A DNA stretch of 64,000 nucleotides from Candidatus Latescibacterota bacterium (GTDB lineage Bacteria > Krumholzibacteriota > Krumholzibacteriia > Krumholzibacteriales > Krumholzibacteriaceae). The stretch covers positions 3,703 to 67,702 of the forward strand of contig JAHOYU010000077.1 of the NCBI GenBank assembly GCA_019038625.1. Direction: 5' to 3'. The notes below the pieces were generated by a model that saw only the letters and a program-made list of their open reading frames with translations, ran no database searches and was not told where the DNA came from. Both the position numbers and the translations under genes were made by a program. Positions 2,057-54,229 of the stretch are shown here, piece after piece; position 1 is the stretch's first letter; every line of letters begins with the position of its first letter.

Positions 2057-2103
2057 ATAAGCAGACACCCTGGCGTGAGCGAAAGATGCAGACAGCGTTC
2101 CGA

Positions 2104-2176
2104 ATTGCTATAGCTCAATTGGTAGAGCTTCTGACTATGGATCAGACTGTTACCGGTTCAAATCCGGTTAGCGAAT
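2104..2176 (+). tRNA. tRNA gene, 73 nt, no encoded CCA; anticodon loop CUAUGGA, identity uncertain
   Basis: Cloverleaf read by hand: acceptor ATTGCTA/TAGCGAA with six of seven pairs and an A1-A72 mismatch; D-arm GCTC-AATTGGTA-GAGC; anticodon stem TCTGA/TCAGA; 5-nt variable loop; T-arm ACCGG-TTCAAAT-CCGGT. Confidence 0.5.
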
Positions 2177-2195
2177 ATTGAGAGACTTGTAATCT

Positions 2196-14497: not shown

Positions 14498-14742
14498 GTG
14501 ATTGTGCGCACCAACTCCGAGGGCAATATTGGCGGAGGATGATTGATGGCAGAGAGGCCGCACTAATCAACCTGTCGCATCTTACTCTAAACATTAGTAA
14601 GGAGTTTGGGTTCCTCGGCGCGTTTATTGCACTCCATCGGTACAAGGGTAGGTTGGAGCCGCACCTGAGTATATATCTGTGGAAGTGGCACCTATCAATT
14701 GGTTGGAGATGGATAGAAAACAACCTCAAGGAGAGCGTATGA
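14494..14742 (+). CDS. hypothetical protein (82 aa)
   Basis: ATGA overlap with the upstream stop. Confidence 0.35.
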   Translation: MSDCAHQLRGQYWRRMIDGREAALINLSHLTLNISKEFGFLGAFIALHRYKGRLEPHLSIYLWKWHLSIGWRWIENNLKESV

Positions 14743-15227
14743 AGCGCGTAGCGGTGACAAGAACCGTGGATGGGGATCAGGGCACATTCGGGAAGATCGT
14801 GGCTGGTGGACGCTCCTGGTGTTCCCTGGAGCTACCCGGAAGGGGCAATAAGCCCTACGTTTCGCGCATACCGGCGGGAATTTATACCTGTCAGTGGACG
14901 TATAGCACTGCTTTTGAGCGCGACCTGTATATCGTTCTCAACGTTCCGGGCCGTAGCGGGATAATGCTGCACTCAGCCAATTGGGCTGGCAACAGGGATA
15001 AGAACTACTATTCGCAGTTATTGGGCTGTATCGCTCCCGGCCTTGGTTATGGGCAGATGATTCCCACTGCCAACGAACAGCATTGGCAACCGCAGTGGGC
15101 CGTCACGGACAGCAGGGATGCCCTGAAAGAGTTTGAAGATTACCTTGACCGTAAAGAATTTGAGCTTCATGTTATAGATGCAATTTCAGATGTATCTTAT
15201 GAATGGGCGCTTGCGCCCGCAGCATGA
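14739..15227 (+). CDS. putative cell-wall hydrolase (candidate endolysin) with a His...Cys motif reminiscent of the YkuD/L,D-transpeptidase fold
   Basis: LHSANWAGN...(18 aa)...LLGCIAPG resembles the H...(S/T)xGC(I/V) catalytic signature. It lies directly upstream of a holin-like gene. RBS CAAGGAGAGCGTATG. Assignment is tentative. Confidence 0.3.
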   Translation: MKRVAVTRTVDGDQGTFGKIVAGGRSWCSLELPGRGNKPYVSRIPAGIYTCQWTYSTAFERDLYIVLNVPGRSGIMLHSANWAGNRDKNYYSQLLGCIAPGLGYGQMIPTANEQHWQPQWAVTDSRDALKEFEDYLDRKEFELHVIDAISDVSYEWALAPAA

Positions 15228-15238
15228 GAGGTAACATC

Positions 15239-15574
15239 ATGAGTATAGCACTGATAGTCGATTGGGCCGTAGATAATTGGGCCATGCTGGCCGCGTCCTT
15301 TCCCGTTCTCGCAGCCGCGTTGGCCTGGGTGGCCCACCGCATAGGCAAGCTGGGGCCGATCATCATGGAGCTTTACCATGTGCTCAAGGACAAAGAGGCA
15401 TCCGACAAGGAGATCGCCACCATAGTCTGGATGTTCGCCGCAGTTCTGGTAGGCTTGTTCAGTAAGCCAAGTTACAAGGTGCTGAACTACGCGCCCGATC
15501 ACCAGATAGCGTTGCTCAAGGCCAAGCAGTTTATACCGGCCTCATACCGGCCAGAAGTAAAGGCCGTAACTTAA
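15239..15574 (+). CDS. holin-like small membrane protein (two to three TM helices)
   Basis: An internal start gives MSIALIVDWAVDNWAMLAASFPVLAAALAWVAH and a second hydrophobic helix IVWMFAAVLVGLF, with a charged C-terminus. Confidence 0.45.
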   Translation: MSIALIVDWAVDNWAMLAASFPVLAAALAWVAHRIGKLGPIIMELYHVLKDKEASDKEIATIVWMFAAVLVGLFSKPSYKVLNYAPDHQIALLKAKQFIPASYRPEVKAVT

Positions 15575-15590
15575 CCCAAAGGGGTTAACC

Positions 15591-16067
15591 ATGTTTCTTC
15601 TCGATTTACTGGCGGCAATAGGCTCCGTTATGCTCAGGATGTTCAGAGGCAGAACGGGCCGTGTGGCGCGTTATCTTGAGCCGGTGGCAGAATCGATCAT
15701 CCGGCAGCTTGATAAAACCGAACTGACGGCTGAAGAGCGGTTTAAGCTGGCGTTTGAAACGCTGACCAACTTCGCCATTGGGAGCGGGGCAGAGGCCGCT
15801 GATCACGCTATCAACCTCGTTATCGAATGGGAATTAGCTGAGGGGCGTGGTAAGAACATCAAGAAGATATTCGATGAAGGTCTACAGCAGGCCCGCGAGG
15901 TCGTGGCGGAAGTGGGCAAGCTGGCCATCGAAAGCGACATGGACAAGAAGCTGGAGGCCGCAGAACAGTTGCGTATGCGACTAACTCACGACATGAAGGA
16001 ATGGTTGACCGAAACGAATACGCTTTTTTTACTTGTGGAAGCGGCGGTTGCGGAAACTAAAGAATGA
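15591..16067 (+). CDS. membrane-anchored coiled-coil protein (candidate spanin or antiholin-like lysis accessory)
   Basis: N-terminal hydrophobic MFLLDLLAAIGSVMLRMF, then predicted helical or coiled-coil sequence. Last gene of the plus-strand block. Confidence 0.4.
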   Translation: MFLLDLLAAIGSVMLRMFRGRTGRVARYLEPVAESIIRQLDKTELTAEERFKLAFETLTNFAIGSGAEAADHAINLVIEWELAEGRGKNIKKIFDEGLQQAREVVAEVGKLAIESDMDKKLEAAEQLRMRLTHDMKEWLTETNTLFLLVEAAVAETKE

Positions 16068-16072
16068 ATATA

Positions 16073-16108
16073 AACCGGCCTTGAGTATGGGAGTTCTCAA
16101 GGCCGGTT
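16073..16108. terminator. bidirectional rho-independent terminator between convergent gene blocks
   Basis: AAACCGGCCTTGAG, loop, CTCAAGGCCGGTTT forms a 14-bp perfect stem with T-runs on both flanks. It sits between the plus-strand stop at 16067 and the minus-strand stop at 16111. Confidence 0.65.
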
Positions 16109-16110
16109 TT

Positions 16111-16527
16111 CTACTCCCTCAACAGCCGTTCTATTTCTTTCAGGAGTTCGTTGTTCTCCTTCTGGCGGTCAATGAAGCCGTCCACCTTTGTTTCCAGCTT
16201 GACGATCCTGCCGTTCGTATCGTTCTTAAGATCGCCGTGCATCTTGTAGTTGGCAAAACCGGTTCCGACAACGGAAACCGCCGCTGCTGCAACGATGCCG
16301 ATAAGCCAGTAAAAAATGCGGCGTAAATTCTTGACCTCTTCTTTGCTTGCGCGAGTCTTGTATACATCTGCGATAGCTTCCCGAATGTTATTGTCCATCT
16401 GCGCTATCTCTTTGGGCATAAAGGGTGTCTGTGGTTGCCGTGGTGTCGGTTGTCTCCATTGAATCTGTCGCAATGTCGCCGGTTTCAGCCACCTCCATCC
16501 GTTCGACAAGCAGGGTGCGGATGACAA
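16111..16527 (-). CDS. single-pass membrane protein with a C-terminal coiled coil (the start is probably the internal Met near 16416)
   Basis: TM helix FYWLIGIVAAAAVSVVGTGF, then K/E-rich helical sequence. Its 5' end overlaps the 3' end of 16388-16678 in another frame. Confidence 0.4.
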   Translation of the reverse strand: MSSAPCLSNGWRWLKPATLRQIQWRQPTPRQPQTPFMPKEIAQMDNNIREAIADVYKTRASKEEVKNLRRIFYWLIGIVAAAAVSVVGTGFANYKMHGDLKNDTNGRIVKLETKVDGFIDRQKENNELLKEIERLLRE

Positions 16528-16678
16528 GCAATCGTACTTTCATACTGTCCTGCTGGGCGCGCAGGCTGTCATCCTTCTCCGCAAGCGTGTCCGCGCGGCT
16601 GCTGTCTGGCGATTTACTGGCAGCAGAGAGGGCGACAAATAGCGCCAGGCAGCATATAATCAATAGTCGAAACATCAC
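16388..16678 (-). CDS. small protein with a predicted signal peptide (acidic, Thr/Asp-rich mature part)
   Basis: MMFRLLIICCLALFVALSAASKS is a cleavable Sec-type signal peptide. The ORF overlaps the next gene out of frame. Confidence 0.45.
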   Translation of the reverse strand: MMFRLLIICCLALFVALSAASKSPDSSRADTLAEKDDSLRAQQDSMKVRLLVIRTLLVERMEVAETGDIATDSMETTDTTATTDTLYAQRDSADGQ

Positions 16679-16684
16679 TTCTCC

Positions 16685-18739
16685 CTAATTGACAGAACGA
16701 GTCCCCTGTACGCCCATGACATTCAAGGGTATTGATACTCCAGTACCTGTGCTCGGATCGAGGGTATCAAACACCGCTCCTATATAGCTCCCAGTTACGT
16801 CCGTGTGAAACGCCCGATAGGCATAGGTAGTATCCGTTGCCAAGCTATCGGTGGTTAGTACGGAGAACACGCCCTCTTCCCATGGGCCGTTGGTATCACT
16901 CGCGTCCAGAATCGTATCTGGCGTAGCGTGTCTGCCAAGTGGGAAGTATTGAAACCCACGAACTGTGATTGGGGTTGTGTTTGGCGTATACGTGAATCCG
17001 GTTGTTCCCGTAAACTGAGCGAGAACATACTTGACGGTATCTGCGTCTGTTGAGATAGTACCATCTGTTATGTCAGTTCTAACCGTGTCCGCTACATCGC
17101 TGTGTATGCGAGTGCCAGTAGTAGCCGAGAAGGCGGTTACAATATAAGCCGTGTCGATAGCAAGAGTGTCTGCTGTTATTGAAGTGTTGATGAAGAAGAC
17201 ACTATCTGTTCCAACGATAGACCATTGTACGTTGGTTGAGTCCGTGGATACGAATACCCTGGTTATCGTGTCGGCTGGAACGGCCTGCTTGTAAAAGGTA
17301 AACCCCACGCTGTCAAGAGAGCCGTCAGTCCCTACCGAGTCAACTGTTGCGCCAAGAGATAACTGAGGAGCAAGGCCGGTTACTTTGAGCGTGTCCGGGT
17401 TATTAGTTACCCCGGTAGTTACGTGTGAAAGGTTGGCAGGAGTATCATCATAATATATAACGATATGGTTATCTGTTATGCTGAACGTCAGAAGCTCGTT
17501 CGCATTTTGCGTATCACTAAACTGATCCCCCGCATCCTTTGCCATCAGCATCATTATCCGCAGGGTATCAGAATCGAGATATGACAGTAGCGTATCTTCT
17601 CCGGCAGTAGTGAAATCGAGCACCTGCCAGCCGGTTTCCTCTGACGTTGTAATCAGGGAATCAGTAAACACTACAACCCCATAAGCTCCGCCTCCGGAGC
17701 CATCGGCCCAACCTGGGAAAGAATTGTAATCATTTCTGTCAGGAACGCCAGTCCATGAACCTTCGACAAATAGCAGAGTATCGGCTTCTGTATTTGCATT
17801 AGCAGTGAGATTCATGTGCAGCTTTGCGGAATCTATGCTAACTGCGCTGGTGCTGTAGCCCGATAAATCAAAGGACATCAGGCCACGAAGAATATTCATC
17901 CGGCTGCCGTTATCATTGACGGCCTTGATTCTTAGGGTGGCGTTGGATGGATTTATAGCAAACTCAGAACCCCGGACGGAATCCCACGCCGCCTGTGTAG
18001 TGGCCCCAACCAGAAAGCCGAGTTCGGTAGTATCGCCCGCCATCATTGTATCATTGACCGAGGGGTCAACTGTAATTGGAAACACGGCCCCAGCCGTATC
18101 TACCAGCACAGTCAGGCTGTCTGCTGTGTAGTTGACGGTCAGCGGGACAGCCGAACCAGCAGCATCCCACGCCACCAATTTACCGAGTTCAGCAACTACC
18201 GCGCTTACAGCGTTCCTGACCCGACCCTTGCCCACGCCTTCATTTTCATGAGTGGACGTAAAATTAAAACCCCATGCCAAGCGATCAGGGCTGTCAGCCT
18301 CAAGATAATAATTGGCCTTCAACCCGTGAGCATGGATGTTAAACTCTATTCCGACATCAGTAGTATCGAAGGCCGGGAGAAATTCAACGAAGCCCTGTTT
18401 GCGCTCGAATCTGATCGCGCCAGTTTCGTTATAGGCAATATCAAACTTACCCGTCCGGATTACCTTGCTGAATGTGCCCGTGGTATCATCAGGCTCAAAG
18501 TTTAGATTAACCATCGTGCCGGAACTGTCACGGTGAATGGGCTGTAGGCCGATCATCGTAACGAACTTGCCGGAACCAATGCTATCAACCTCAAACGTCT
18601 TGCCGTTCAGCGTCCGTTTGCTCACCCGCTCTATTGTATTCGCTGGCTGCTGAAACTTCTCAGGCTTGTTGATCTTAAAACCCTTAGCCGACATCACTGA
18701 GGGCAATAGCATTAACAGCAATACAAGTGCGAATCTCAT
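16685..18739 (-). CDS. large protein (about 684 aa from Met16), beta-rich and Thr/Ser/Asp-rich, with a predicted N-terminal signal peptide
   Basis: AAGGAGGG RBS 7 nt before ATG. MRFALVLLLMLLPSVMSAKG signal peptide. The ORF track extends to a TTG at 18784. Confidence 0.55.
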   Translation of the reverse strand: MRFALVLLLMLLPSVMSAKGFKINKPEKFQQPANTIERVSKRTLNGKTFEVDSIGSGKFVTMIGLQPIHRDSSGTMVNLNFEPDDTTGTFSKVIRTGKFDIAYNETGAIRFERKQGFVEFLPAFDTTDVGIEFNIHAHGLKANYYLEADSPDRLAWGFNFTSTHENEGVGKGRVRNAVSAVVAELGKLVAWDAAGSAVPLTVNYTADSLTVLVDTAGAVFPITVDPSVNDTMMAGDTTELGFLVGATTQAAWDSVRGSEFAINPSNATLRIKAVNDNGSRMNILRGLMSFDLSGYSTSAVSIDSAKLHMNLTANANTEADTLLFVEGSWTGVPDRNDYNSFPGWADGSGGGAYGVVVFTDSLITTSEETGWQVLDFTTAGEDTLLSYLDSDTLRIMMLMAKDAGDQFSDTQNANELLTFSITDNHIVIYYDDTPANLSHVTTGVTNNPDTLKVTGLAPQLSLGATVDSVGTDGSLDSVGFTFYKQAVPADTITRVFVSTDSTNVQWSIVGTDSVFFINTSITADTLAIDTAYIVTAFSATTGTRIHSDVADTVRTDITDGTISTDADTVKYVLAQFTGTTGFTYTPNTTPITVRGFQYFPLGRHATPDTILDASDTNGPWEEGVFSVLTTDSLATDTTYAYRAFHTDVTGSYIGAVFDTLDPSTGTGVSIPLNVMGVQGTRSVN

Positions 18740-18752
18740 AATCATACCCTCC

Positions 18753-19631
18753 TTATTTGGATGCCCAGGGAAAGTTAACATCAAACATAATCATATCAGG
18801 ATGAATCACCCAACCAACAATTTGAGAAGCATGTCCGGCAGTAGTGTCTGCCGGGGCTTCTGTCAATCCTCCCGCCGTAGTGCTGACATATAAATAAGCG
18901 CCTATTTTAGTCCAGTTCCAAGTTGTATTATGAGCCACGCCGCGTGTCATTATGGTGCCAGAAGAGCCGTTACTTATGTTGGCCGTCGCCATGCCCATGC
19001 CGCGCTTGGCGTAAAACGATCCCGCACCGCTGCTCGTATCGGCATCCGCAAGTTTCCAAGTGCTGTCCGGGGCATAATAAAGAAGCTCGAAGGCACTGAT
19101 GGACTCTCCGGCCTTAGTCCACGAAGAAGGAGTATAGCCCTCCTTCATGTCCACATCGCCATCAGCTATGGTAAGATCGAAGAAGGGACTAACACTTATC
19201 CCGTCCACACGCAGTAGATCAGTAACCACGCTGTCAGCATTGGCAGCTAACGTACTATCACGGTTGAACGCATCATGTGCCGTTGCCGTGTCGCTTGCAA
19301 TTTCGGCAACAAGAATAGTGTCCGCACCGGAGATAATCGTGTCGCCGGAAATAGACATCGTGGTAAAGATGATCTGCCCATCTGCTCCGTAGGCAAATAC
19401 CAGTGTGCTATCAGCGCTCGCCGGTCTTGCCGCTGGCAGGTACATGGCGGAGTCAAGGTCTGCCGCCCACGACAGGGAGGTCGTAACCAGATCGGTATTC
19501 TTCCAGCCGACTCGACTGGTCTCCGTGATCTGTGCTGAGAGTGGAATAGCAAGGAGGCTGAGACCAATCAGCGCCCCCACGATACTTCTTATAAGCGCTC
19601 GTGTTCTCATGTTATTCTCCTCGGATTTCAT
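18753..19631 (-). CDS. protein (292 aa) with a predicted N-terminal signal peptide, paralog A
   Basis: Signal peptide ...RALIRSIVGALIGLSLLAIPLSAQ. Shares W(A/W)(A/E)DLDS(A/T)MYLP.ARP..ADS....YGA.GQI with 19612-20241. Confidence 0.55.
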   Translation of the reverse strand: MKSEENNMRTRALIRSIVGALIGLSLLAIPLSAQITETSRVGWKNTDLVTTSLSWAADLDSAMYLPAARPASADSTLVFAYGADGQIIFTTMSISGDTIISGADTILVAEIASDTATAHDAFNRDSTLAANADSVVTDLLRVDGISVSPFFDLTIADGDVDMKEGYTPSSWTKAGESISAFELLYYAPDSTWKLADADTSSGAGSFYAKRGMGMATANISNGSSGTIMTRGVAHNTTWNWTKIGAYLYVSTTAGGLTEAPADTTAGHASQIVGWVIHPDMIMFDVNFPWASK

Positions 19632-20241
19632 AGCTTACCCTGGTATCCCAGTAAACCGTCTTAAGATTAGCTCCGGTTATTTGCACGTCCACCGTCTGGC
19701 TATCAGTATTAGCCACTATATCGAAGTCGAAAGCTGCTCCGTCGCTATAATGGCTACTCAGTACAATCGAACTGCCCAGAATCGTCACGTCCCCGGCGGT
19801 GTCTCGGTAGAATGCGGCCTCTACTCGGTAGCTGGCTGCTTCGTCAGTCGCTGCGCGGGCTGTAGTCATCGCCAAGACAGAGATCGTCTGCTGTGCGGCC
19901 AACGGAATAGCCACGGCCACTTCCATCGTACTGGTCGTGGTGGTATCGGTAGCAATGGAAACGCTCTCGTAGTACCCTGCTCCGCCGCCACTTCCATAAG
20001 TCCAGACTATCTGCCCGCCAGCCCCATAGGTCAGTACCCATGAACTGTCGGCATCGTCCGGTCTGGCGGGCGGTAGGTACATCGTTGAATCCAAGTCCTC
20101 TGCCCACCACAGGCCAAGGGCGGTTGCATATCCATTGCTAAACCCCGGTCTCGTTCCCGTTACCTGCGCACTCGCCATTTGCGGCACCAGCAGCAGAAGA
20201 GATAGCATGATGGTAAGTCTTGTAATCCATTTTCTGTTCAT
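19612..20241 (-). CDS. protein (209 aa) with a predicted N-terminal signal peptide, paralog B
   Basis: Signal peptide MNRKWITRLTIMLSLLLLVPQMASAQ. Paralogous core with 18753-19631. Confidence 0.55.
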   Translation of the reverse strand: MNRKWITRLTIMLSLLLLVPQMASAQVTGTRPGFSNGYATALGLWWAEDLDSTMYLPPARPDDADSSWVLTYGAGGQIVWTYGSGGGAGYYESVSIATDTTTTSTMEVAVAIPLAAQQTISVLAMTTARAATDEAASYRVEAAFYRDTAGDVTILGSSIVLSSHYSDGAAFDFDIVANTDSQTVDVQITGANLKTVYWDTRVSYEIRGE

Positions 20242-20254
20242 TTGCTTATTCCTC

Positions 20255-20656
20255 TTAGCTGGCTAAGGTTCGGTAGACAAGTCGGCAAGACCACTTGACG
20301 GTTTCTCCATCCGCGCCGGTTACCGTCACCACAATGGAATTCCCGCTGGCATCCAGGGAGGCCGCGTAGGAGGCTTCGGCACTCATGTGCGAATCGAGAG
20401 AAGCATCATACCCCTCTCGCGCAAGGCTGCTCACCCGCTTGAAGGTGGCCGATAGCTTATAGACCGCTATCTTTGCCCCGGAAACGCCCCAAGCCATGCA
20501 AATAGCCTCGCAGTCAACCACCTGACCGGCAGCGACAGGCAGCGTCAGCACGGTTGTCTCGGTAGCATCAGAGGTAACAGCAGACCCCTCTATGCTGCTC
20601 GAATGCTTTGAGGCGTTGCTGCTGTTGTAAATATTACCCCATAGTCGATTGCCCAT
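20255..20656 (-). CDS. hypothetical protein (133 aa) downstream of the tail fiber
   Basis: ORF with RBS. No signal peptide. Confidence 0.45.
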   Translation of the reverse strand: MGNRLWGNIYNSSNASKHSSSIEGSAVTSDATETTVLTLPVAAGQVVDCEAICMAWGVSGAKIAVYKLSATFKRVSSLAREGYDASLDSHMSAEASYAASLDASGNSIVVTVTGADGETVKWSCRLVYRTLAS

Positions 20657-20668
20657 GATGGTCTCCGT

Positions 20669-21898
20669 TTATGCGTTTACTCCGCGATTATCCAACCAAC
20701 CCAATGTGCAAACGTCAACAGCATAAGCATCCTGGGATGGTCGTATTCTGATTTGTCCGCTGCTGTTAACCCTGACTTCTATCTGCCCGGTACTGAACCG
20801 GACACCTGTATTCAACGGCACCGCAAGCTGTGGAAACGGCGCGGTCGTGTACTCGTTGGGCGCTTCATCGTCAATGCTAAGAGAACTGAAATAAACACTT
20901 CCGGCCACCGCATTTGTACCGGCGGTCGCCGTGATTATCGCGGAAACGCTGGAATCTGGTGGAACCGTAAGCGCCTGGGTAGTAGCAGGAGAGGCATCAA
21001 TGTTACCATCACCAGCAGCATTCCTGTCCTCAACGGTTTCCTTCCACAGAAAAGTATCAGCATCCTGGCTAAAATCCTTGATCTGTGAACTGGAATCGGT
21101 TTTAATCCAGCCGATTCTACGGAAAGTGGTATATCCGGTTGGCAGTGTGGGGCTTGACGCGCTGGTGCTGATCATAATGTCAGTGGTATCGCTCTCAGGG
21201 TTATAGATCAGATGCACGGCGTACCACGTATTTACAATGATGGAAAGGCCTGATTGCAGGCTCCCGTTGCCGGTACCCACTACCCACCCGCTTAAGGTCT
21301 TTGTATAATTTGAGGCCAATGTCGGTGAGGTGCTATCCGTGCTGTCCCGGCATTTACCGGCTGACACCCCGAAGGTAGTAACAGCCGAGTAAGAAAGGGT
21401 TAGCCCGCTGAGATGTTCGGGCGGCACGCTGGCCGCAGAACCGCCAATGTTGGTAAGATTGGACCCGTCAAGTACGGGCAACTTGGCATCGTCATCGAGT
21501 AGCAGGACTTCACCGCCATCCGTGCCAGCATCCTTGGTGGCGGCTGTACCGAGGCCGAGAGATGAGCGCATTGCGGTAGCGCTTGCCTGTGCAAGCAGGT
21601 CGCGTGCATCGTCTGTGATCTGGAGGGCGAGAACGTAATCGATGGTGTCAATGAGATTATCGTCACTATCGTAAAGCTCAATCTTGTAAAGACCTTCACC
21701 AAATATAGCAGCCATCCCATAGCTGTTGAGAATAACCGGATTGGCGTTGGCGCTTGACATGCCACCGTCTTGCCATGTGACCTTGGGGGTGCTTGTTCCA
21801 GCTTCGTAGGTTCTTACCTTGCCACCGGAAAGAGGCGCTCCTGAGCTATCGAATGCCTGAAACCAGGGGTTATTCAGGGGAGGTGCGTAATCAGCCAT
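20669..21898 (-). CDS. tail fiber protein
   Basis: The N-terminal region ...DDARDLLAQASATAMRSSLGLGTAATKDAGTDGGEVLLLDDDAKLPVLDGSNLTNIG matches the conserved tail-fiber N-terminal (collar-attachment) motif common to many phages. The C-terminus is beta-rich. Confidence 0.6.
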   Translation of the reverse strand: MADYAPPLNNPWFQAFDSSGAPLSGGKVRTYEAGTSTPKVTWQDGGMSSANANPVILNSYGMAAIFGEGLYKIELYDSDDNLIDTIDYVLALQITDDARDLLAQASATAMRSSLGLGTAATKDAGTDGGEVLLLDDDAKLPVLDGSNLTNIGGSAASVPPEHLSGLTLSYSAVTTFGVSAGKCRDSTDSTSPTLASNYTKTLSGWVVGTGNGSLQSGLSIIVNTWYAVHLIYNPESDTTDIMISTSASSPTLPTGYTTFRRIGWIKTDSSSQIKDFSQDADTFLWKETVEDRNAAGDGNIDASPATTQALTVPPDSSVSAIITATAGTNAVAGSVYFSSLSIDDEAPNEYTTAPFPQLAVPLNTGVRFSTGQIEVRVNSSGQIRIRPSQDAYAVDVCTLGWLDNRGVNA

Positions 21899-21937
21899 TT
21901 TTTCAAGCGCTCCTGCAGTCGCTATCTCCCTATGCGC

Positions 21938-21983
21938 CCAATATCGCGCAGGGATTTTCTCAACTGCTTGCCAGGGTTAGGCA
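21938..21983. repeat. 46-bp direct repeat, copy 1 (intergenic, between the giant gene and the tail fiber gene)
   Basis: aatgcgcccaatatcgcgcagggattttctcaactgcttgccagg is repeated exactly at 22087-22132, where it encodes the last 15 residues of the giant protein. Confidence 0.7.
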
Positions 21984-22085: not shown

Positions 22086-25000
22086 CTATTTCTTAATGCG
22101 CCCAATATCGCGCAGGGATTTTCTCAACTGCTTGCCAGGATCAGGAGGCTTTGGGAAAACAGGAGATTCCCGAACCGGAACCGCCTTAAGTTCGGGATTG
22201 ATTTTCCTCTGCTCCTTGATGAACCGACTCTTAACGGACTTCGCAGTTTTCTTCTCCATTGACCCATCCGCGACAGCCCTATCCACTGCACTCTTGAAAC
22301 GCTCCCGCTCTCCTGCGGTAAACACGGTGGTCGCCGCATCGTCCAACATACCGTAGACAGTTTGCTTACTCTTACCAGGATAAGGTTTACGGTAAAAACG
22401 GCGCATCACGGGTATAAACCGCGTTTCTATCTTTTCATCAGTTGCCAGTGAGATGCCGGTAGCCACCGAATTGCTGACAAACTTCCCAATTCCACCGCCC
22501 AGGAAGTTGATCGTGTGGTCAATATACTCAGGGCTGACATCCGCCGCACCGAAAGGCTTACGCTGCGTAGCGGTCTTCTCTGCCAACCAGCGAGTGAATT
22601 CCCTTGTGGATGGGCGCACGCCCTTGAAATATAACTGGTGCCGTGGCTTTTTAGGCCCATAGGCCGGTTGATCTGGTGCCACAGGGCCACCGAAAAATGT
22701 TTTATTTGTAGCCAACTGCACCGGCAGATCAAGGGCAGTCGGTGAAATGATCTGTGTCAACGGGCCACCGCCAACAGGACTTGCAGCATCGGCCACCGCG
22801 CCCACCATCCTGGCCGCGAGTTTAACTGGATCAGGGTTATTGCCTAATGCCATTTCTGCCGCCAGTCCACCGAGCGCCCAATAGACGTTAAGCCCGTAAG
22901 GCAACGGTACGCTCAATGTTCTGCCGCCGCCAAGATGCCAAGTAGCGTTCTGATCCTTTTGGAAGTCGGCCACTTCCTCCCAATCGTCAGGATCGATCAT
23001 GCGATTCTTTAACTCGTTGAGAAATGCGGTGGCTATGATAAGGCCGATCAGCGCCTGTGCCCTTACCTGTCCTGCCGTCTTAGGCTTACCGGGGATGCCG
23101 ATTGTTCTCAAATTACGGGCTATGCCCTGAATCGTAGCATTTGAGAACAGGTACAGACTGTTCAATATCCTACCGATTTCACCTTTTTTATTAAAGTTGA
23201 CGGTCACGTTTTTAGCATAACTCGCGGCCACTTCCTTTGTCGCGCCAGCACCCTTAAGGTGATGGTATACCGACAGGCGGATACCGCTCTCCACCATCTC
23301 ATTGTAATCCTGTATTAATTGCCCAAGGACTTTTATCGGTGCGACTATCCGACCTTTACCCGTGTAAGAGCGCACCTTGCGCTCAAGCTGTTTTATCCTC
23401 TGCTCCAACGGCTTGTTGTCAAACCAACCTACCTTACCGCCAGTAGCCTTCAAGTCCTCATACTCAGCAGCCCAACCTTTATCCGCATCACTTCTGATGT
23501 TACCGCGCACACCGTTGATAGCCGCAGGTAGTGAGGCAAGTGTCTTAGTCGCCAGCTTAAATCCATGATCGGAAGTGATATGGAATGTGGCCGTGGGGGT
23601 ATCCCTGATGAAGTTGAAGATCGGGAATACGGGCGAAAACGTTGTTATTACCCCGCGCTGTATGGTGTTAAACAGTTCAAGCGCACCGCCGATTATGGGC
23701 ACGGTACTCTCTGTACCTAAGCTTTTCATTGCACGGGCGAGAACCACATCCCTGATAGTCACCTCTATGGTCTTGCCCTCTTCCTTGACGGCAAATATCT
23801 CATGCGCATAATCACTCGCCGGATCACGAAACGCAATCTCTCCCTCTTCGTTTATTGTCGAAGGGTTAAAGACCTCCTTGGCATCCCAAAGCGGATGAGG
23901 ATTGTTGCGCACGAACTCAAGGAACGTACTGGCTACCTTGTTCTTTTCCTCGCGCATTACCGCCTGCTCGTAGTCTACGATGGCCTGCACGAATGGATTG
24001 TCCGCAATCGACCAGCGCCCATGTGCCCGCTTAATGGACTTCCCGCTTACCGAGAATCCCTTACCGATACCACGATAGGCTTTCTTACCCGCCTTACCCT
24101 TGAGCGGTACGTAATAATTGTACTGGTCCTTATACTTCTGGTAAGCTTCTTCTGTGATCTCACCATAGTCACGGTAACGTTCGAGCGTCACGTTGATAAT
24201 CTTCTTACGGAACTCATCGGCAAACTCTTCTATGCCCGTACCCTCGTAACGATCCAGAACAACAGCAGCCTGGTTTAATGATATACCGGCCCCGAAAGTA
24301 TCATCCCGATCCTCAAGCCTCGCACTCAGCTTCGCAAGTTCCTTTTCAGCCACCTCTGGCGTGATAACCCCAGCCTCAAGCTGTGCGTTAAGATCGTCAA
24401 TCATCTCTCCGTACTTAGCCTGACGGCGTTCGGCGGTGTGCTTCGCGTACATGAACCCACCGAGTTTGCCCACACTATATCCAGCTTGAGCCAAGCGCAC
24501 CATGAACGACTTCCTGCCCTTGGTCAGAAAATCCTCAAGTTTATCAAGCTCGTGCGACACTCTGCCGGGGAACAACTCTGCGGCCAGCCGCGTATCCTCT
24601 GTCTGCGGAACCACATCATAAGCTTTCTGGATTGTCTCTATTCTGTTCAGCTTATCGACTACCACGCGCACAAACTTCTCCCTGTTTGTCTCATCATCAA
24701 TCTGAGGAATGGTGCGCTCAAGATCAGCAGAGACATCGGTGCGGGCGAAGCGCAACCCCTGCTCTGCGGCCACCATCTGCCGCTCAAGCTCTGCGATCTT
24801 CTGCAAGTAACGCATCTGTATGTTTTCCGTGCTCACCCCGTTGCGCATCGGCGGTAGGTTAGCCAACAACTCTGATACCTGCTGTATCTCCTTCTCTATG
24901 GCAACAGGGTCAAGGGTACGGGCGAACAAAGGCTGACCAGCCTCTCTCTCCGCTCTCTTGCGCCCCATACTCGCCCTCAGAGCATCATCGAGCAACACCC

Positions 25001-51673: not shown

Positions 51674-54229
51674 TCAGTACCCACTTATAGGGCTTTTGCC
51701 CTTGTCGCGTTGACGGTGGAGTGCCGCATGTCGCCTGTGTTGCAGGCTATCCTTGTAAGTTTTGTTCTCGCGCCTCTGGTATTCAACCGGCTTTATCCTG
51801 AAAGCAAAGGTCTGGGCCAGCGCATCTCCAAAGTCCGGGCTGTCAAGTTCACGCGCCTTCATATGCTCCTTGCGCTCCAACTGTATCTTATCCGCAACGC
51901 TAAAGCCATACTCGATAGATGTCAGGTCTGTTTCAAGGTAATCGTACTCGCGCTGCTCCAGGCCACTCAGGTCTGCGGTCTTCAGCCATTCGCGCATGTT
52001 TCCCCACATCTCGGCCCGCTTATTGAAGTATTTCTTCTTGCTTGACCGGCTACCCGCCACAACGGAGAACCAGCGGCACTTAAGCTGCCTGCCACGATCA
52101 ATGACACCTGTCCCCGGCCCTGTCTCATCGATAAACACGGCATCGGCACCGTATTCGTCTTCAGCGTCCTGCACCAAGCTAACAATTGTCATGTTATCAA
52201 GCTCTCGATACTCGCGTATCTCCAGTATTCTAAGTCCCTGCCTTATAACAATAACAGTCCTGTCGTCACCGAAACGGGCTACATCAACGCCTATCACAAT
52301 AGGCGAATCCTTGTAGAGATCGTAATCAAGCTTCCGCTTACGGGCCTCTTCCACCCAATCAAGGGCAATAAACTGCATTGAACTTGCGCGCGGAAACTCA
52401 CCCTTCACCCTGACCCTCACAAAATCGCTGTCTTCTCCGTAATCGTCTATCCACTCCTGGATAAGCTGTTTCTCGGCCTTTTTCGCCGTCCTGCTGTCCA
52501 CCTTGAAAGTCACCCAACGCTTGCGGAACTTCGTCCAGCAGGCTCTAAAGCGGCCCACGTTTCTTGTCGGGTTGCCGAAACATATCCAGATAGAGCCGGT
52601 TGTGGTCATGGCACCGCTGGCCACCTCCCATATCTTGTCATCGATAGCACTCGCCTCATCGAAGATCATCAGCACGTTTTCTTCGTGTGTACCGGCAAAC
52701 GCCTCTGTATTCTGCTTGCTCCAGGGTGCGGCGGTCATAAAGTGCGTGGTAGGGTGTTCGATTGCGCGGAACTTGGTGGCAGTCCATTCAAACCAATGCT
52801 GGTTGATAACCATCTGGTGCCACTTCGATAGCTCCATCCATGTCTTGTCGGTCAACTGCATCTTGGTATTGGCGGTCACAACGGCCTTGATCGGTGTCCG
52901 CGTGGACATGAACCAGAGGATAATCCAGGCTACAAGGGCCGTGTTGTGTGTGACGATGAAATCATTTGCCAGATATAATTGATCCTCAGCCTCAACAGTT
53001 ATACACATGCATTCTGCTTCACCGGCAAGCTCCACGCGATCAATAAACCTTTCCAGATATCGCTTCTGTGATGTCGGCCTTATTCTCTCTGCCTTGCGCT
53101 TAATGTAGCACGGAGTAAATCCGTCTGGAAACGTCAAGGAACACAAGTAGGCTCCGTTATGCGTCTTACTATGCAGTCTTGCCTTCCCGCCGATGGAACG
53201 AGTTAGCCATATCACGTCTTCGATGAGCAACTTAGATACAGAGCAATATTGAGCACATCCAGTATCAGAAACATATCCATCGGTGTCCATCAGGCCACGT
53301 AGCACCTCTTCGCGCACCTCACGGAGATTATACTTATAAATATCGGGCACATGTTTTTCTCGCGCACCACACTTGTCAACGCCGAGTCGCTCCAACGCTG
53401 GTCGCAAATGTCCCACATTAAATACCTTTGCCTTCGTCTCTCGCTTGCTTTGCCCCTCGGTGAGCCTATAGCGCGCCGAAGCGATGCGCTCAAACACCTC
53501 AGCGTCCATATTTGTAATACGGCTTGTATTTCGGCAACCATCCCCCAGCCATGCGCCCAGTGTATACGGATCAACATTGACCCACTGATATGGATATTCT
53601 ACCGCACCATGACGCGGTATTTGGAATCTTCGTGCGCGCCCCTGCCCGTTTTTCCGCCGCGGCCCAGTTTCGGCGATCTCAGCAGTGCTCTTTGTTTCCC
53701 AATCTTTTCTGCGCTCTTTCACAAGCCATAAGTGCTCGGCGCACGTTAAGGTGCTGCTTTCATCGTCAAATATCACTCGATATATTGGCTTGATGCCCTG
53801 TGGGTGAATTTGTGCAATTCTTGTAGGCTTTCCGTCCCTACCAAAGACGGTATCTCCGGGCTTCAAATCTCCCCAGCGCCGTACACCGGTTGGCGTGTCC
53901 AGCTTCATATCAGTTGGATGCGCTTTTCCTGCCCCGTGGCCGCTGCTGACGGCCATCTGGATAGCGCGTGTTATGTTCCCATCTTTGCGCTTGAGCAGTT
54001 CTTCACGCAGCAGTCCAAGAAACTTGGTCTGCCAGATATCCGGCCCTGTCTCTTTTTCGAGAATAGTGCCCGATCTGCCCCAGGGAAGCGCCCACATGAC
54101 AAAGCCGTAAGGGTCATCCTTGAAGCTCATTATCTTCAAGGTCAACTCTTTCTCGTTCAACTCCGCCTTTGCCGCGCCATCGTGGTGCGATCTGCCTGTA
54201 GATTGGGCATGTGCTGTGGCCTCACTCAT
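51674..54229 (-). CDS. terL: terminase large subunit interrupted by a 327-aa intein
   Basis: Walker A is split: ...VSSGHGAGK | intein | TALVAWIILWF..., which reconstitutes GHGAGKT. Downstream terminase ATPase and nuclease pattern (...TTTGSIWICFGNPTRNVGRFRACW...). The extein is about 524 aa. Confidence 0.8.
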   Translation of the reverse strand: MSEATAHAQSTGRSHHDGAAKAELNEKELTLKIMSFKDDPYGFVMWALPWGRSGTILEKETGPDIWQTKFLGLLREELLKRKDGNITRAIQMAVSSGHGAGKAHPTDMKLDTPTGVRRWGDLKPGDTVFGRDGKPTRIAQIHPQGIKPIYRVIFDDESSTLTCAEHLWLVKERRKDWETKSTAEIAETGPRRKNGQGRARRFQIPRHGAVEYPYQWVNVDPYTLGAWLGDGCRNTSRITNMDAEVFERIASARYRLTEGQSKRETKAKVFNVGHLRPALERLGVDKCGAREKHVPDIYKYNLREVREEVLRGLMDTDGYVSDTGCAQYCSVSKLLIEDVIWLTRSIGGKARLHSKTHNGAYLCSLTFPDGFTPCYIKRKAERIRPTSQKRYLERFIDRVELAGEAECMCITVEAEDQLYLANDFIVTHNTALVAWIILWFMSTRTPIKAVVTANTKMQLTDKTWMELSKWHQMVINQHWFEWTATKFRAIEHPTTHFMTAAPWSKQNTEAFAGTHEENVLMIFDEASAIDDKIWEVASGAMTTTGSIWICFGNPTRNVGRFRACWTKFRKRWVTFKVDSRTAKKAEKQLIQEWIDDYGEDSDFVRVRVKGEFPRASSMQFIALDWVEEARKRKLDYDLYKDSPIVIGVDVARFGDDRTVIVIRQGLRILEIREYRELDNMTIVSLVQDAEDEYGADAVFIDETGPGTGVIDRGRQLKCRWFSVVAGSRSSKKKYFNKRAEMWGNMREWLKTADLSGLEQREYDYLETDLTSIEYGFSVADKIQLERKEHMKARELDSPDFGDALAQTFAFRIKPVEYQRRENKTYKDSLQHRRHAALHRQRDKGKSPISGY
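52943..53923 (-). mobile_element. intein with a LAGLIDADG homing-endonuclease domain, inserted after the Walker A lysine of the terminase
   Basis: Begins AHPTDMKLDTPTG... (Ala at position 1). Block B-like TCAEHLW. Two LAGLIDADG motifs, LGAWLGDGC and LRGLMDTDGYV. Ends ...FIVTHN, followed by the +1 Thr of the extein. Confidence 0.7.

What the first reader, a model, noticed from the sequence alone, without database searches (positions are those of the whole stretch)
16388..20241. Run of proteins with predicted N-terminal signal peptides immediately after the tail fiber gene
The 209-aa, 292-aa and 699-aa proteins downstream of the fiber all have a positively charged N-terminus, a 15-20-residue hydrophobic core and an A-x-A-like cleavage site. 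The 209-aa and 292-aa proteins are paralogs sharing DLDS(A/T)MYLP.ARP and YGA.GQI. The large one is Thr/Ser/Asp-rich and beta-rich. They are followed by an overlapping pair: a 96-aa acidic protein that also has a predicted signal peptide (16388-16678), and a TM coiled-coil protein. Cleavable Sec signals are unusual for virion proteins, so this looks like a cassette of exported proteins in the late operon. It could be surface or receptor modification for superinfection exclusion, exported effectors, or a novel spanin-like set.
Basis: partly seen in the sequence, partly recalled or inferred. Interest (0 to 1): 0.7.

Follow-up and report, generated by a model that had tools for sequence, protein, structure and literature searches.

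The report
Exported, glycosylation-motif-rich fibre-like phage proteins
Right after its tail-fibre gene, an uncultivated phage encodes a conserved set of proteins built from fibre and sugar-binding modules that carry export signals and are packed with a bacterial sugar-attachment motif, so they probably work outside the cytoplasm as host-glycosylated proteins, which is unusual for a tailed phage.

Summary
On the minus strand, the 209-, 292- (true start probably M8) and 699-aa (true start probably M14) ORFs and the 96-aa ORF all begin with a Sec/SPI-type signal peptide. These N-termini are conserved in every homologue recovered from six related uncultivated phage loci with the same gene order.

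New findings:
- **Sequon enrichment.** The mature parts hold 46 copies of D-(S/T)-(A/I/L/V/M/T), the acceptor motif of Bacteroidota periplasmic O-glycosylation, against 10.4 expected (z 12). Control motifs, all other window proteins and signal-less homologues show no enrichment.

The proteins are therefore most likely exported late and O-glycosylated by the host. Their role is unresolved: masking of surface glycans, decoration of virions after lysis, or help with lysis. The closest precedent is XepA of PBSX. A spanin reading fails because there is no lipobox. The host is uncertain, since frequent Shine-Dalgarno sites argue against a typical Bacteroidia host.

The parts
20669..21898 (-). Tail-fibre protein (409 aa), no signal peptide. 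It is the gene that the cassette always follows.
   Evidence: PHROG tail-fibre and N-terminal hits. tblastn matches to tail-fibre regions of cultured phages. Sequon count 4 vs 3.1 expected, not enriched.
20255..20656 (-). 133-aa stand-alone copy of a tail-fibre C-terminal jelly-roll domain. It has no signal peptide and no sequons. It is a paralogue of the 209-aa C-domain.
   Evidence: BLASTP against the 209-aa protein gives E 2e-7. The domain family usually sits at the extreme C-terminus of tail-fibre or minor-tail proteins. Sequon count 0.
20167..20241 (-). Signal peptide of the 209-aa protein (residues 1-25, ASA|Q).
   Evidence: Q at +1 is invariant in all four family members.
19987..20166 (-). 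N-domain shared by the 209- and 292-aa families (QxTxxxRPGFxNG ... DLDSxMYLPxARPxxADS ... GQI). It is modelled poorly.
   Evidence: 54% identity to the 292-aa protein over 67 aa. Also found in P0028 and P0012. pLDDT about 50-60.
19615..19974 (-). C-terminal jelly-roll domain of the 209-aa protein (residues ~90-209), of tail-fibre-tip type.
18753..19610 (-). The '292-aa' protein, probably 285 aa from M8. Signal peptide at residues 1-26 (nt 19533-19610), then the shared N-domain, a sequon-rich spacer, and a cement/neck-fibre-bead-like C-domain (nt about 18756-19049).
   Evidence: Pfam Phage_cement_2 hits in 5 of 8 family members, best E 1.6e-4. Profile hit to A-1(L) neck-fibre gp82 residues 134-237, E 0.0026. 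9 sequons vs 2.4 expected.
18680..18745 (-). Signal peptide of the '699-aa' protein, counted from M14. The predicted cleavage is A-K-G|F, and the mature N-terminus FK(V/I)NKPEKF is conserved.
17441..18640 (-). Two conserved beta-sandwich domains of the large protein (residues ~36-435): an N-terminal beta-sandwich followed by a CBM96/DNRLRE-like module.
16688..17440 (-). Variable Thr/Ser/Asp-rich C-terminal region of the large protein (residues ~436-686). It holds 14 sequons and its fold is unresolved.
   Evidence: pLDDT below 35. Length varies or the region is absent in homologues.
16388..16675 (-). 95-aa acidic protein with a signal peptide, an amphipathic helix, 7 sequons and no lipobox.
   Evidence: 7 sequons vs 1.1 expected. 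Homologues in L001, L002 and L004 are also enriched.
16111..16398 (-). 95-aa bitopic membrane protein (N-in, one TM segment, about 45 aa of periplasmic coiled coil). It is the last gene of the late operon, has a weak XhlA-like match, and is linked to lysis genes in relatives.
   Evidence: Pfam XhlA at 24 bits, below the gathering score of 34.7. In L004 the homologous pair sits directly upstream of a Peptidase_M15_3 gene and a 77-aa TM protein.
16070..16110 (.). GC-rich hairpin between the convergent late and lysis/early transcription units. It is probably a bidirectional terminator.
   Evidence: Read directly from the sequence.
14679..16067 (+). Convergent probable lysis genes: a DUF5675 protein (candidate C82-like peptidase endolysin, 14679-15227), a 123-aa TM holin-like protein (15203-15574) and a 158-aa protein with an N-terminal TM segment (15591-16067).
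   Evidence: Pfam DUF5675 E 2.7e-20. DUF5675 is described as a candidate lysin in bioRxiv 10.64898/2026.04.11.717860. The (W)xVDNW N-terminal motif is shared with the 77-aa proteins of L001 and L004.

Best explanation
This is a conserved module of the late operon, placed between the tail-fibre gene and the lysis genes. It encodes three large proteins and one small protein that leave the cytoplasm by the Sec pathway with cleavable type-I signal peptides.

The mature parts are assembled from modules otherwise found on phage fibres:
- a tail-fibre-tip jelly-roll;
- a cement/neck-fibre bead domain;
- a beta-sandwich plus a CBM96/DNRLRE-like glycan-binding fold.

The mature parts are also densely and specifically studded with D-(S/T)-(A/I/L/V/M/T). 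This is the acceptor motif of the general O-glycosylation system that acts on the periplasmic side in Bacteroidota.

Proposed course of events. Late in infection the proteins are co-expressed with the fibre. They are exported to the periplasm, where the host machinery O-glycosylates them (and pyroglutamylates the Q+1 members). They accumulate there and are set free when the cell lyses. Their job is therefore extracytoplasmic binding of glycans or of the envelope, not cytoplasmic virion assembly.

The role I commit to as most likely is binding of the same surface polysaccharide that the fibre recognises, either to mask receptors on the infected cell and its debris or to act as released lectins. 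The small SP protein and the TM protein at the end of the operon belong functionally to the neighbouring lysis genes.

Shown: the ORFs, the SP-like N-termini and their conservation, the synteny, the domain similarities, and the motif statistics.
Inferred: actual export, actual glycosylation, late timing, and the role.
For: **Export.**
- SP-like N-termini in four consecutive genes.
- They are conserved in homologues at 30-50% identity in L001, L002, L004, L005, L006 and L085.
- A lipobox variant exists in P0017.
- Q at +1 is found throughout the 209 family and in most of the 292 family, matching the Bacteroidetes Q-rule (PMC5837995).

**Glycosylation motif.**
- 699 aa: 27 vs 5.2 expected (z 10). 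292 aa: 9 vs 2.4 (z 4.7). 96 aa: 7 vs 1.1 (z 6.3). These are the three highest densities among 74 window proteins.
- Pooled mature parts: 46 vs 10.4 (z 12.1).
- Controls are flat: D[ST][other] 11 vs 13, E[ST]phi 3 vs 3.9, reversed 13 vs 10.5, [ST]D 26 vs 23.4.
- The residues following D[ST] (L, T, A, V, I, S, M = 88%) match the published glycoproteomic preference (PMC12871550).
- The same enrichment appears only in the SP proteins of every related locus and in P0028 (20 vs 2.7).
- Many sequon columns are conserved, for example 9 of 11 sequences at reference positions 210, 217, 233 and 394.
- Signal-less homologues are not enriched. The L086 418-aa protein has 3 vs 2.2, and 4 of 5 conserved sequon columns are lost there. 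138 signal-less members of the jelly-roll family have a mean z of -0.25 and a maximum of 2.0.
- Positive control: in Bacteroides phage B40-8, a TM/SP protein next to the putative peptidase has 5 vs 0.7.

**Fibre and lectin modules:**

**One transcription unit with the fibre:** gaps of 13 nt or less, or overlaps, and no excess of promoter or terminator sites.

**Precedents.** XepA of PBSX is exported, absent from particles, and encoded between tail genes and xhlA-xhlB-xlyA (PMC6834076). P. gingivalis phages encode Q-rule signal-peptide proteins of unknown function (PMC10367356).
Against: - No dedicated signal-peptide predictor could be run.
- The host is unknown. The contig's proteins carry conflicting labels, Bacteroidales and Candidatus Latescibacterota.
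- Shine-Dalgarno motifs precede 58% of genes (32% strong), against 11% in Bacteroides phage B40-8. The Bacteroidota promoter motif TAnnTTTG is not enriched (21 vs 32 expected). A typical Bacteroidia host is therefore unlikely, and the O-glycosylation system has been described only for Bacteroidota.
- The 209-aa protein itself is not sequon-enriched (3 vs 1.6).
- The large protein and the 96-aa protein do not follow the Q-rule.
- No T9SS C-terminal domain was detected, so reaching the cell surface before lysis is unexplained.
- The CBM96/DNRLRE assignment rests on fold only; NCBIfam and Pfam HMMs gave no hit.
- The conserved-N / variable-C architecture is what one expects of virion-attached receptor-binding proteins. 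This favours the rival reading of post-lysis attachment.
Confidence: 0.5

Rival explanations
1. Virion decoration after lysis. The proteins are true fibre or adhesin components. They are routed through the periplasm to be folded and O-glycosylated. They dock onto cytoplasmically assembled particles only when holin and endolysin action mixes the two compartments. The result is glycan-coated fibres.
For: - All three large proteins are made of virion-fibre modules.
- Both the RPGF family and the large family have a conserved mature N-terminus and a variable C-terminus, as virion-anchored receptor-binding proteins do.
- The cassette is always linked to the fibre gene but not always to lysis genes, as L005 and L006 show.
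- A signal-less homologue sits in a tail module in L086.
- Dense, conserved sequons suggest selection for a long-lived extracellular protein.
- Fibres are known to self-assemble and attach separately, as the A-1(L) neck fibre does (PMC10966104).
Against: - I know of no precedent for a tailed phage assembling structural parts from the periplasm (my own knowledge, plus null literature searches).
- XepA, the closest precedent, is absent from particles.
- No docking partner was identified.
Confidence: 0.2
2. Lysis accessory proteins of the XepA type. The exported proteins act on the envelope (membrane, wall or outer layers) to help the holin and endolysin release the progeny.
For: - The position matches PBSX: tail genes, then the exported protein, then an XhlA-like TM protein, then holin and lysin.
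- In L004 the small SP/TM pair directly precedes a Peptidase_M15_3 gene and a holin-like gene.
- The lysis-cassette protein of B40-8 is also sequon-rich.
Against: - No catalytic or membrane-active domain was found in the large proteins.
- In L005 and L006 the cassette is not followed by lysis genes.
- In L004 an IS element separates the large proteins from the lysis genes without loss of either.
- The XhlA match is below threshold and absent in homologues.
Confidence: 0.15
3. A two-component spanin or novel spanin set. The 96-aa SP protein and the TM coiled-coil protein (or the whole cassette) bridge and fuse the inner and outer membranes at lysis.
For: - The genes are adjacent and slightly overlapping at the end of the late operon, next to lysis genes.
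- The TM protein has a periplasmic coiled coil.
- The pair is conserved in L001, L002 and L004.
Against: - The 96-aa family has no lipobox or Cys at the cleavage site, and the mature proteins have no Cys at all.
- The gene order is the reverse of the usual i-spanin then o-spanin.
- The overlap is only 11 nt.
- The periplasmic part of the TM protein is only about 45 aa.
Confidence: 0.07
4. Ordinary cytoplasmic virion proteins. On this reading the hydrophobic N-termini and the D[ST]phi excess are compositional or structural quirks of beta-rich fibre proteins.
For: - The domains are of fibre type.
- Three apparent enrichments in distant bacterial homologues turned out to be tandem-repeat artefacts (L052, L026 and L011). 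This shows the statistic can mislead.
Against: - The enrichment is not periodic here.
- It spans four unrelated families.
- It is absent from the beta-rich fibre and other structural proteins of the same genome and from signal-less homologues of the same folds.
- It always co-occurs with an N-terminal n/h/c-type signal.
Confidence: 0.08

Closest known systems
XepA (XkdY), the 'PBSX exported protein' of the Bacillus subtilis prophage PBSX, with its neighbours xhlA-xhlB-xlyA (PMC6834076)
   Same: It is a late-operon gene placed between the tail/fibre genes and an XhlA-type membrane protein, holin and endolysin. The protein leaves the cytoplasm during phage development. It is built of beta-sandwich/jelly-roll domains that resemble cement proteins. 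Its function is still unresolved.
   Different: - PBSX has a monoderm host.
- XepA is a single protein, not a set of 3-4.
- XepA has no glycan-binding CBM-like module, no shared N-terminal adaptor domain and no glycosylation-motif enrichment.
- The XhlA match here is below Pfam's threshold.
Signal-peptide proteins of unknown function that obey the Bacteroidetes Q-rule in Porphyromonas gingivalis phages (PMC10367356)
   Same: They are phage-encoded Sec/SPI substrates with Gln at +1. They are interpreted as adaptation to the host's export machinery and as possible envelope modifiers.
   Different: - Those phages are temperate siphophages of a cultured Bacteroidota host.
- No link to the fibre gene, no fibre-type domains and no glycosylation-motif enrichment were reported.
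- Here only two of the four families follow the Q-rule.
Substrates of the general O-glycosylation system of Bacteroidota (motif D-(S/T)-(A/I/L/V/M/T); PMC12871550, PMC8550257, PMC8729774)
   Same: The proteins are non-cytoplasmic (carry a signal peptide). They carry the exact three-residue motif with the published preference at the third position.
   Different: - These proteins are phage-encoded.
- The motif density (3-7 per 100 aa) is very high; the only heavily glycosylated host proteins I can compare it with are S-layer proteins, and that comparison rests on my recollection.
- The host phylum is unconfirmed, and translation signals do not look like Bacteroidia.
- The glycan itself was not observed.
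Receptor-blocking proteins encoded next to receptor-binding genes (T5 Llp, Cor of phi80/T1/N15); from my own knowledge
   Same: They are exported phage proteins encoded beside the receptor-binding protein gene. Their logic is to mask the receptor on the infected cell and its debris.
   Different: Llp and Cor are small outer-membrane lipoproteins unrelated to fibre modules. Here there is no lipobox, the proteins are large, they are made of lectin/fibre modules, and they are co-transcribed with late genes.
CBM96 / DNRLRE carbohydrate-binding modules (8wab, 7vbo; PMC9971899), and the bead-chain neck fibre of cyanophage A-1(L) (gp82C/gp81/gp80; PMC10966104)
   Different: CBM96 modules sit in polysaccharide lyases, and no lyase domain is present here. 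The A-1(L) fibre proteins have no signal peptides and assemble in the cytoplasm.

Membership tests
Sec/SPI (type I) signal peptide | Positively charged n-region, a hydrophobic h-region of 7-15 or more residues, and small residues at -3 and -1 | tested here: met
   Met by a heuristic scan and by reading the sequences, for all four proteins and all homologues. SignalP and DeepTMHMM were not available.
Sec/SPI (type I) signal peptide | Actual translocation and cleavage | not testable with these tools
   Needs PhoA or Bla fusions, or N-terminal sequencing.
Substrates of Bacteroidota general O-glycosylation | Non-cytoplasmic protein carrying D-(S/T)-(A/I/L/V/M/T) | tested here: met
   46 motifs vs 10.4 expected in the mature parts. 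Control motifs are flat, and only the SP proteins are enriched.
Substrates of Bacteroidota general O-glycosylation | The host belongs to Bacteroidota, or otherwise has the O-glycosylation machinery | tested here: inconclusive
   - MAG labels conflict: Bacteroidales vs Latescibacterota.
- The Q-rule holds in 2 of 4 families.
- SD use is high, unlike Bacteroides phage B40-8.
- TAnnTTTG is not enriched.
Substrates of Bacteroidota general O-glycosylation | Glycan attached to the Ser/Thr of the motif | not testable with these tools
   Needs glycoproteomics or a gel shift in glycosylation mutants.
Two-component spanin (i-spanin + o-spanin) | The o-spanin is an outer-membrane lipoprotein with a lipobox and a Cys at +1 | tested here: not met
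   No lipobox in the 96-aa family, and no Cys in any mature protein.
Two-component spanin (i-spanin + o-spanin) | The i-spanin has an N-terminal TM segment and a periplasmic coiled coil; the genes are adjacent, overlapping or embedded, with the i-spanin first | tested here: inconclusive
   The TM protein has a cytoplasmic N-terminus of about 29 aa, one TM segment and a coiled coil of about 45 aa. It lies downstream of the SP protein, with an 11-nt overlap.
XhlA (PF10779) | Score above Pfam's gathering threshold | tested here: not met
   24.0 bits against a threshold of 34.7. Only the TM stretch aligns, and the three homologues give no hit.
XepA-like exported lytic-cassette protein | Sequence or clear structural homology to XepA or YomS | tested here: not met
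   [not shown]
XepA-like exported lytic-cassette protein | An exported late protein encoded between tail genes and the membrane-protein/holin/lysin genes | tested here: met
   Gene order in the window, L001 and L004, compared with PBSX.
CBM96 / DNRLRE domain | Fold of the module | tested here: met
   [not shown]
CBM96 / DNRLRE domain | Sequence-profile membership and ligand-binding residues | tested here: not met
   No Pfam or NCBIfam hit even at E <= 1. Binding residues were not examined.
Phage cement protein (PF09956) / A-1(L) gp82C bead domain | Profile match | tested here: inconclusive
   22.1 bits against a threshold of 24, but the hit recurs in 5 of 8 family members. Profile against PDB 8keg: E 0.0026.
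T9SS cargo | C-terminal sorting domain (type A or type B CTD) | tested here: not met
   No NCBIfam hit at E <= 1 for any of the proteins.
Receptor-blocking lipoproteins (Llp, Cor) | A small outer-membrane lipoprotein encoded next to the receptor-binding gene | tested here: not met
   Adjacency to the fibre gene is met, but there is no lipobox and the proteins are large lectin/fibre-type proteins.

The most novel reading that the evidence does not exclude
A lineage of tailed phages sends fibre-type adhesins through the Sec pathway so that the host's periplasmic general O-glycosylation system coats them with host glycans. The glycoproteins then join the virions, or act alongside them as free lectins, only at lysis. 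This would be the first case of a tailed phage using a host periplasmic protein-glycosylation pathway, and an extracytoplasmic assembly step, for its receptor-binding apparatus.
Probability: 0.2. Interest if true: 0.9.

Novelty: new variant of a known kind. Interest (0 to 1): 0.68.

Why it matters
Late phage proteins that leave the cytoplasm are known (XepA, Q-rule proteins of P. gingivalis phages). Their roles remain open.

This cassette gives that question a sharper form. The exported proteins are recognisably fibre and lectin modules. They are always tied to the fibre gene. They also carry a dense, conserved, export-specific glycosylation motif.

If confirmed, this would show that phages exploit a host protein-glycosylation pathway for their own extracellular proteins. 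It would supply a simple sequence signature (signal peptide plus D-S/T-hydrophobic excess) for finding such proteins in viromes. It might also extend the known range of this glycosylation system beyond classical Bacteroidia hosts. Finally, it bears on how such phages handle glycan receptors, debris and superinfection.

Tried and rejected
- **Cultured-phage searches.** DNA (10 kb) and tblastn searches of the 699-, 209- and 292-aa proteins against 50,697 phage records gave no match. The cassette is known only from uncultivated phages.
- **Direct family hits for the large protein.** Pfam, PHROGs and NCBIfam gave nothing for the 699-aa protein. My recollection that it contains a DNRLRE-like stretch was confirmed only by fold, not by HMM.
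- **GTDB genome scan with the 699-family alignment.** It returned only short matches to the '(Y/F)P(I/V)T(V/I)DP' end of the first beta-sandwich, in many phyla. It gave no host information.
- **Those loci as a control for the sequon statistic.** Most were flat. Three apparent enrichments (L052, L026, L011) were periodic tandem-repeat artefacts, and Bacteroidota-labelled loci were not enriched. That control is therefore weak.
- **Exact look-up of the 285-aa protein's contig.** Nothing was on record.
- **Bacteroidota-type promoter motifs.** Not enriched.
- **Campylobacter-type N-glycosylation sequon.** 0 found vs 1.1 expected.
- **Canonical spanin.** Rejected, because there is no lipobox.
- **XhlA membership.** Rejected, because the match is below threshold and absent in homologues.
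- **T9SS C-terminal domain.** Not found.
- **Literature on phage-encoded substrates of Bacteroidota O-glycosylation.** The searches found nothing relevant.

Full report
**What the window is.** The 64-kb window is most of a novel tailed-phage genome. Early and replication genes lie on the plus strand: RecT, a YqaJ-like exonuclease, a DnaC-like loader and a methylase. A long late operon lies on the minus strand. It encodes an SU10-type portal, adaptors, a head-closure protein, a DNA-ejection protein and a 2178-aa polyvalent protein with an LPD38 domain. No cultured phage is similar at the DNA level. The portal is 26-35% identical to portals of mostly podovirus-type phages of Proteobacteria. Identical proteins are on record from a 70,917-nt contig of a metagenome-assembled genome (MBU8921255-58). 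Its submitter labelled it 'Bacteroidales bacterium', and nr labels it 'Candidatus Latescibacterota bacterium'.

**Check of the observation.** The late operon ends with these genes:
- fibre, 409 aa, 20669-21898;
- 133 aa, 20255-20656;
- 209 aa, 19612-20241;
- 292 aa, 18753-19631;
- 699 aa, 16685-18784;
- 96 aa, 16388-16678;
- a TM protein inside the 138-aa ORF, 16111-16527.

A hairpin follows, and then the convergent plus-strand genes. Intergenic gaps are 13 nt or less, or the genes overlap. Promoter-like and terminator-like sites are no more frequent than in shuffled sequence. The genes therefore belong to the fibre's transcription unit.

The four N-termini have a basic n-region, a hydrophobic core of 12-17 residues and small residues at -3 and -1. 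The three large proteins rank among the best signal-like N-termini of 104 window ORFs; only a few small hydrophobic ORFs near the window end score as high. The likely true starts are M8 for the 292-aa ORF (NCBI also aa) and M14 for the 699-aa ORF. The TM protein most likely starts at ATG 16398.

The 209- and 292-aa proteins share 54% identity over their first ~65 mature residues (E 7e-16) and nothing beyond that.

**Conservation.** The large protein has only ten relatives among 5.8 billion clustered proteins. The contigs that carry them show the same order: polyvalent protein, fibre of ~405 aa, one or two small or medium SP proteins, the large SP protein, and often a small SP protein plus a TM protein. 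This holds for L001, L002, L004, L005 and L006 and for L085 from IMG/VR. Every homologue keeps a signal-peptide-like N-terminus although identities fall to 30-50%. One distant member of the 292 family, P0017, has a lipoprotein signal instead. That variant also points to an extracytoplasmic location.

**What the proteins are made of.**
- *292 aa.* The conserved C-domain gives sub-threshold but recurrent hits to Pfam Phage_cement_2 (5 of 8 members). It also gives a profile hit to residues 134-237 of the neck-fibre protein gp82 of cyanophage A-1(L) (E 0.0026). According to PMC10966104, that region is the trimeric 'bead' domain gp82C of a self-assembling bead-chain fibre.

All three large proteins are thus built from the module repertoire of phage fibres and receptor-binding proteins.

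**The glycosylation motif.** The composition suggested testing for D-(S/T)-(A/I/L/V/M/T). This is the acceptor motif of the general O-glycosylation system of Bacteroidota, which modifies only non-cytoplasmic proteins (PMC12871550, PMC8550257). Counts were compared with shuffles of each protein, which control for composition.
- The 699-aa protein has 27 motifs against 5.2 expected (z 10). The 292-aa protein has 9 against 2.4 (z 4.7). The 96-aa protein has 7 against 1.1 (z 6.3). These are the three highest densities among 74 window proteins.
- The fibre (4 vs 3.1), the 133-aa protein (0) and all other structural proteins are not enriched. The 209-aa protein is not enriched either (3 vs 1.6).
- The pooled mature parts give 46 against 10.4 (z 12.1).
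- The signal is specific. D[ST] followed by other residues gives 11 vs 13. E or N in place of D gives 3 vs ~4. The reversed motif gives 13 vs 10.5, and [ST]D gives 26 vs 23.4.
- The residues that follow D[ST] (L, T, A, V, I, S, M = 88%) match the published preference.
- The positions are not periodic, so internal repeats are not the cause.
- The pattern repeats in every related locus and only in the SP proteins. P0028, which has the same signal peptide and N-domain, has 20 against 2.7.
- Many motif columns are conserved across the large-protein family, for example in 9 of 11 sequences.
- Homologues of the same folds without signal peptides are flat. The 418-aa L086 protein has 3 vs 2.2 and lacks the motif at four of five conserved columns. 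The 138 signal-less jelly-roll proteins reach a maximum z of 2.0.
- As a positive control, Bacteroides phage B40-8 has one strongly enriched protein with an N-terminal hydrophobic segment, encoded next to its putative peptidase (5 vs 0.7).
- Gln follows the predicted cleavage site in all 209-family members and most 292-family members. This fits the Bacteroidetes Q-rule (PMC5837995).

**Caveats on the host.**
- Shine-Dalgarno-like motifs precede 58% of the window's genes (32% strong), against a background of 17% and 5%. In B40-8 the figure is 11%, with no enrichment.
- The Bacteroidota promoter motif TAnnTTTG is, if anything, depleted (21 vs 32 expected).
- The two MAG labels disagree.

A typical Bacteroidia host is therefore unlikely. 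A member of another lineage of the Fibrobacterota-Chlorobiota-Bacteroidota group is plausible but unproven. It is not known to me whether such hosts have the same glycosylation system. A non-periodic enrichment in a KSB1 homologue (L045) is a hint and no more.

**Mechanism.**
- *Shown:* conserved SP-type N-termini, fibre and lectin modules, one operon with the fibre, and a motif excess specific to the exported proteins.
- *Inferred:* the proteins are made late, cross the inner membrane by Sec, and are cleaved. They are O-glycosylated (and, for the Q+1 members, pyroglutamylated) in the periplasm. They stay there, since no T9SS domain or lipobox was found, until lysis releases them.

Three roles fit.
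1. *Glycan or receptor binding outside the cell.* The proteins would mask receptors on the infected cell and on debris, or act as soluble lectins. This matches the adjacency to the fibre gene, the CBM-like fold, and the fact that the 209-aa protein is an exported paralogue of a fibre-tip-type domain.
2. *Attachment to virions after lysis.* This matches the conserved mature N-termini with variable C-termini, the invariable link to the fibre gene even where no lysis genes follow (L005, L006), and the dense conserved glycosylation sites expected of a long-lived extracellular protein. It has no precedent known to me.
3. *A lysis accessory role like that proposed for XepA of PBSX.* XepA is exported, is absent from particles and is encoded between tail genes and xhlA-xhlB-xlyA (PMC6834076).

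I rank role 1 slightly ahead, but the three cannot be separated by computation.

**The small SP protein and the TM protein.** This pair is the part most clearly tied to lysis. In L004 the pair directly precedes a Peptidase_M15_3 gene and a 77-aa holin-like gene. In the window, the convergent neighbours are a DUF5675 protein (a candidate C82-like peptidase lysin according to a 2026 preprint) and a homologous holin-like protein. The pair is not a canonical spanin. It has no lipobox, the gene order is reversed and the overlap is 11 nt. The XhlA match is below threshold and absent from homologues.

**Comparison and novelty.** Exported late phage proteins of unknown role are known. Examples are XepA and the Q-rule proteins of P. 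gingivalis phages (PMC10367356). Receptor-blocking exported proteins encoded next to receptor-binding genes are also known (Llp, Cor; my own knowledge).

What is new here is the combination of four features:
- a multi-gene cassette of fibre and lectin modules;
- a shared N-terminal adaptor domain;
- a conserved position after the fibre gene in a whole lineage of uncultivated phages;
- a dense, conserved O-glycosylation motif specific to the exported proteins.

I found no report of phage-encoded substrates of this glycosylation system. That search covers only the open-access library. I file the finding as a new variant of a known kind, with a minority reading (periplasmic glycosylation of virion adhesins) that would be categorically new.

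Noticed in passing
window 21922-21981 and 22086-22145: A 60-nt direct repeat at 90% identity. One copy is the 3' end of the 2178-aa polyvalent-protein gene (last ~19 codons). The other lies in the spacer upstream of the fibre gene. It looks like a recombination or module-exchange scar at the boundary of the fibre cassette.
   Followed up: partly
window 2103-2177 (+): ARAGORN reports a tRNA-His gene with anticodon 'atg' rather than the usual GTG.
   Followed up: no
window 14679-16067 (+): A probable lysis cassette made of a DUF5675 protein, a 123-aa TM protein and a 158-aa protein with an N-terminal TM segment. In the relative L004, a Peptidase_M15_3 gene takes the place of DUF5675 beside a homologous 77-aa TM protein. 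This supports the recent proposal that DUF5675 is a peptidase-type endolysin.
   Followed up: partly
window 51674-54229 (-): An 851-aa ORF with weak LAGLIDADG and Hom_end hits in its middle (residues ~298-379). It may be an intein or homing endonuclease inside a large late gene, perhaps the terminase.
   Followed up: no
L004 9464-10879: In a related phage, an IS1595-family transposase gene and a SocA_Panacea gene are inserted between the large exported protein and the small SP/TM pair with the endolysin.
   Followed up: no
L086 9941-11197 (IMGVR_UViG_3300029288_000217): A signal-less 418-aa homologue of the two N-terminal domains of the large protein sits inside a tail module of an unrelated phage and lacks the glycosylation-motif excess. 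It is useful as a natural control, and it indicates that the exported proteins derive from tail proteins.
   Followed up: yes
L089 15801-16406 (Bacteroides phage B40-8): A 201-aa protein with an N-terminal hydrophobic segment, encoded directly after the putative peptidase, has 5 D[ST]phi motifs against 0.7 expected. Cultured Bacteroides phages may therefore also encode substrates of the host O-glycosylation system.
   Followed up: partly
L005 8316-15606: In this locus the cassette is followed by bacterial genes: a TPR/DUF5107 protein, two cyclophilins (one with a signal peptide and Q at +1) and the start of gyrA. The cassette therefore also exists in an integrated prophage or a remnant.
   Followed up: partly
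window 19612-20241 (NCBI protein MBU8921256.1): The public annotation calls this gene as 156 aa, starting at M54. That cuts off the signal peptide and half of the conserved N-domain. Homologues support the 209-aa form.
   Followed up: yes
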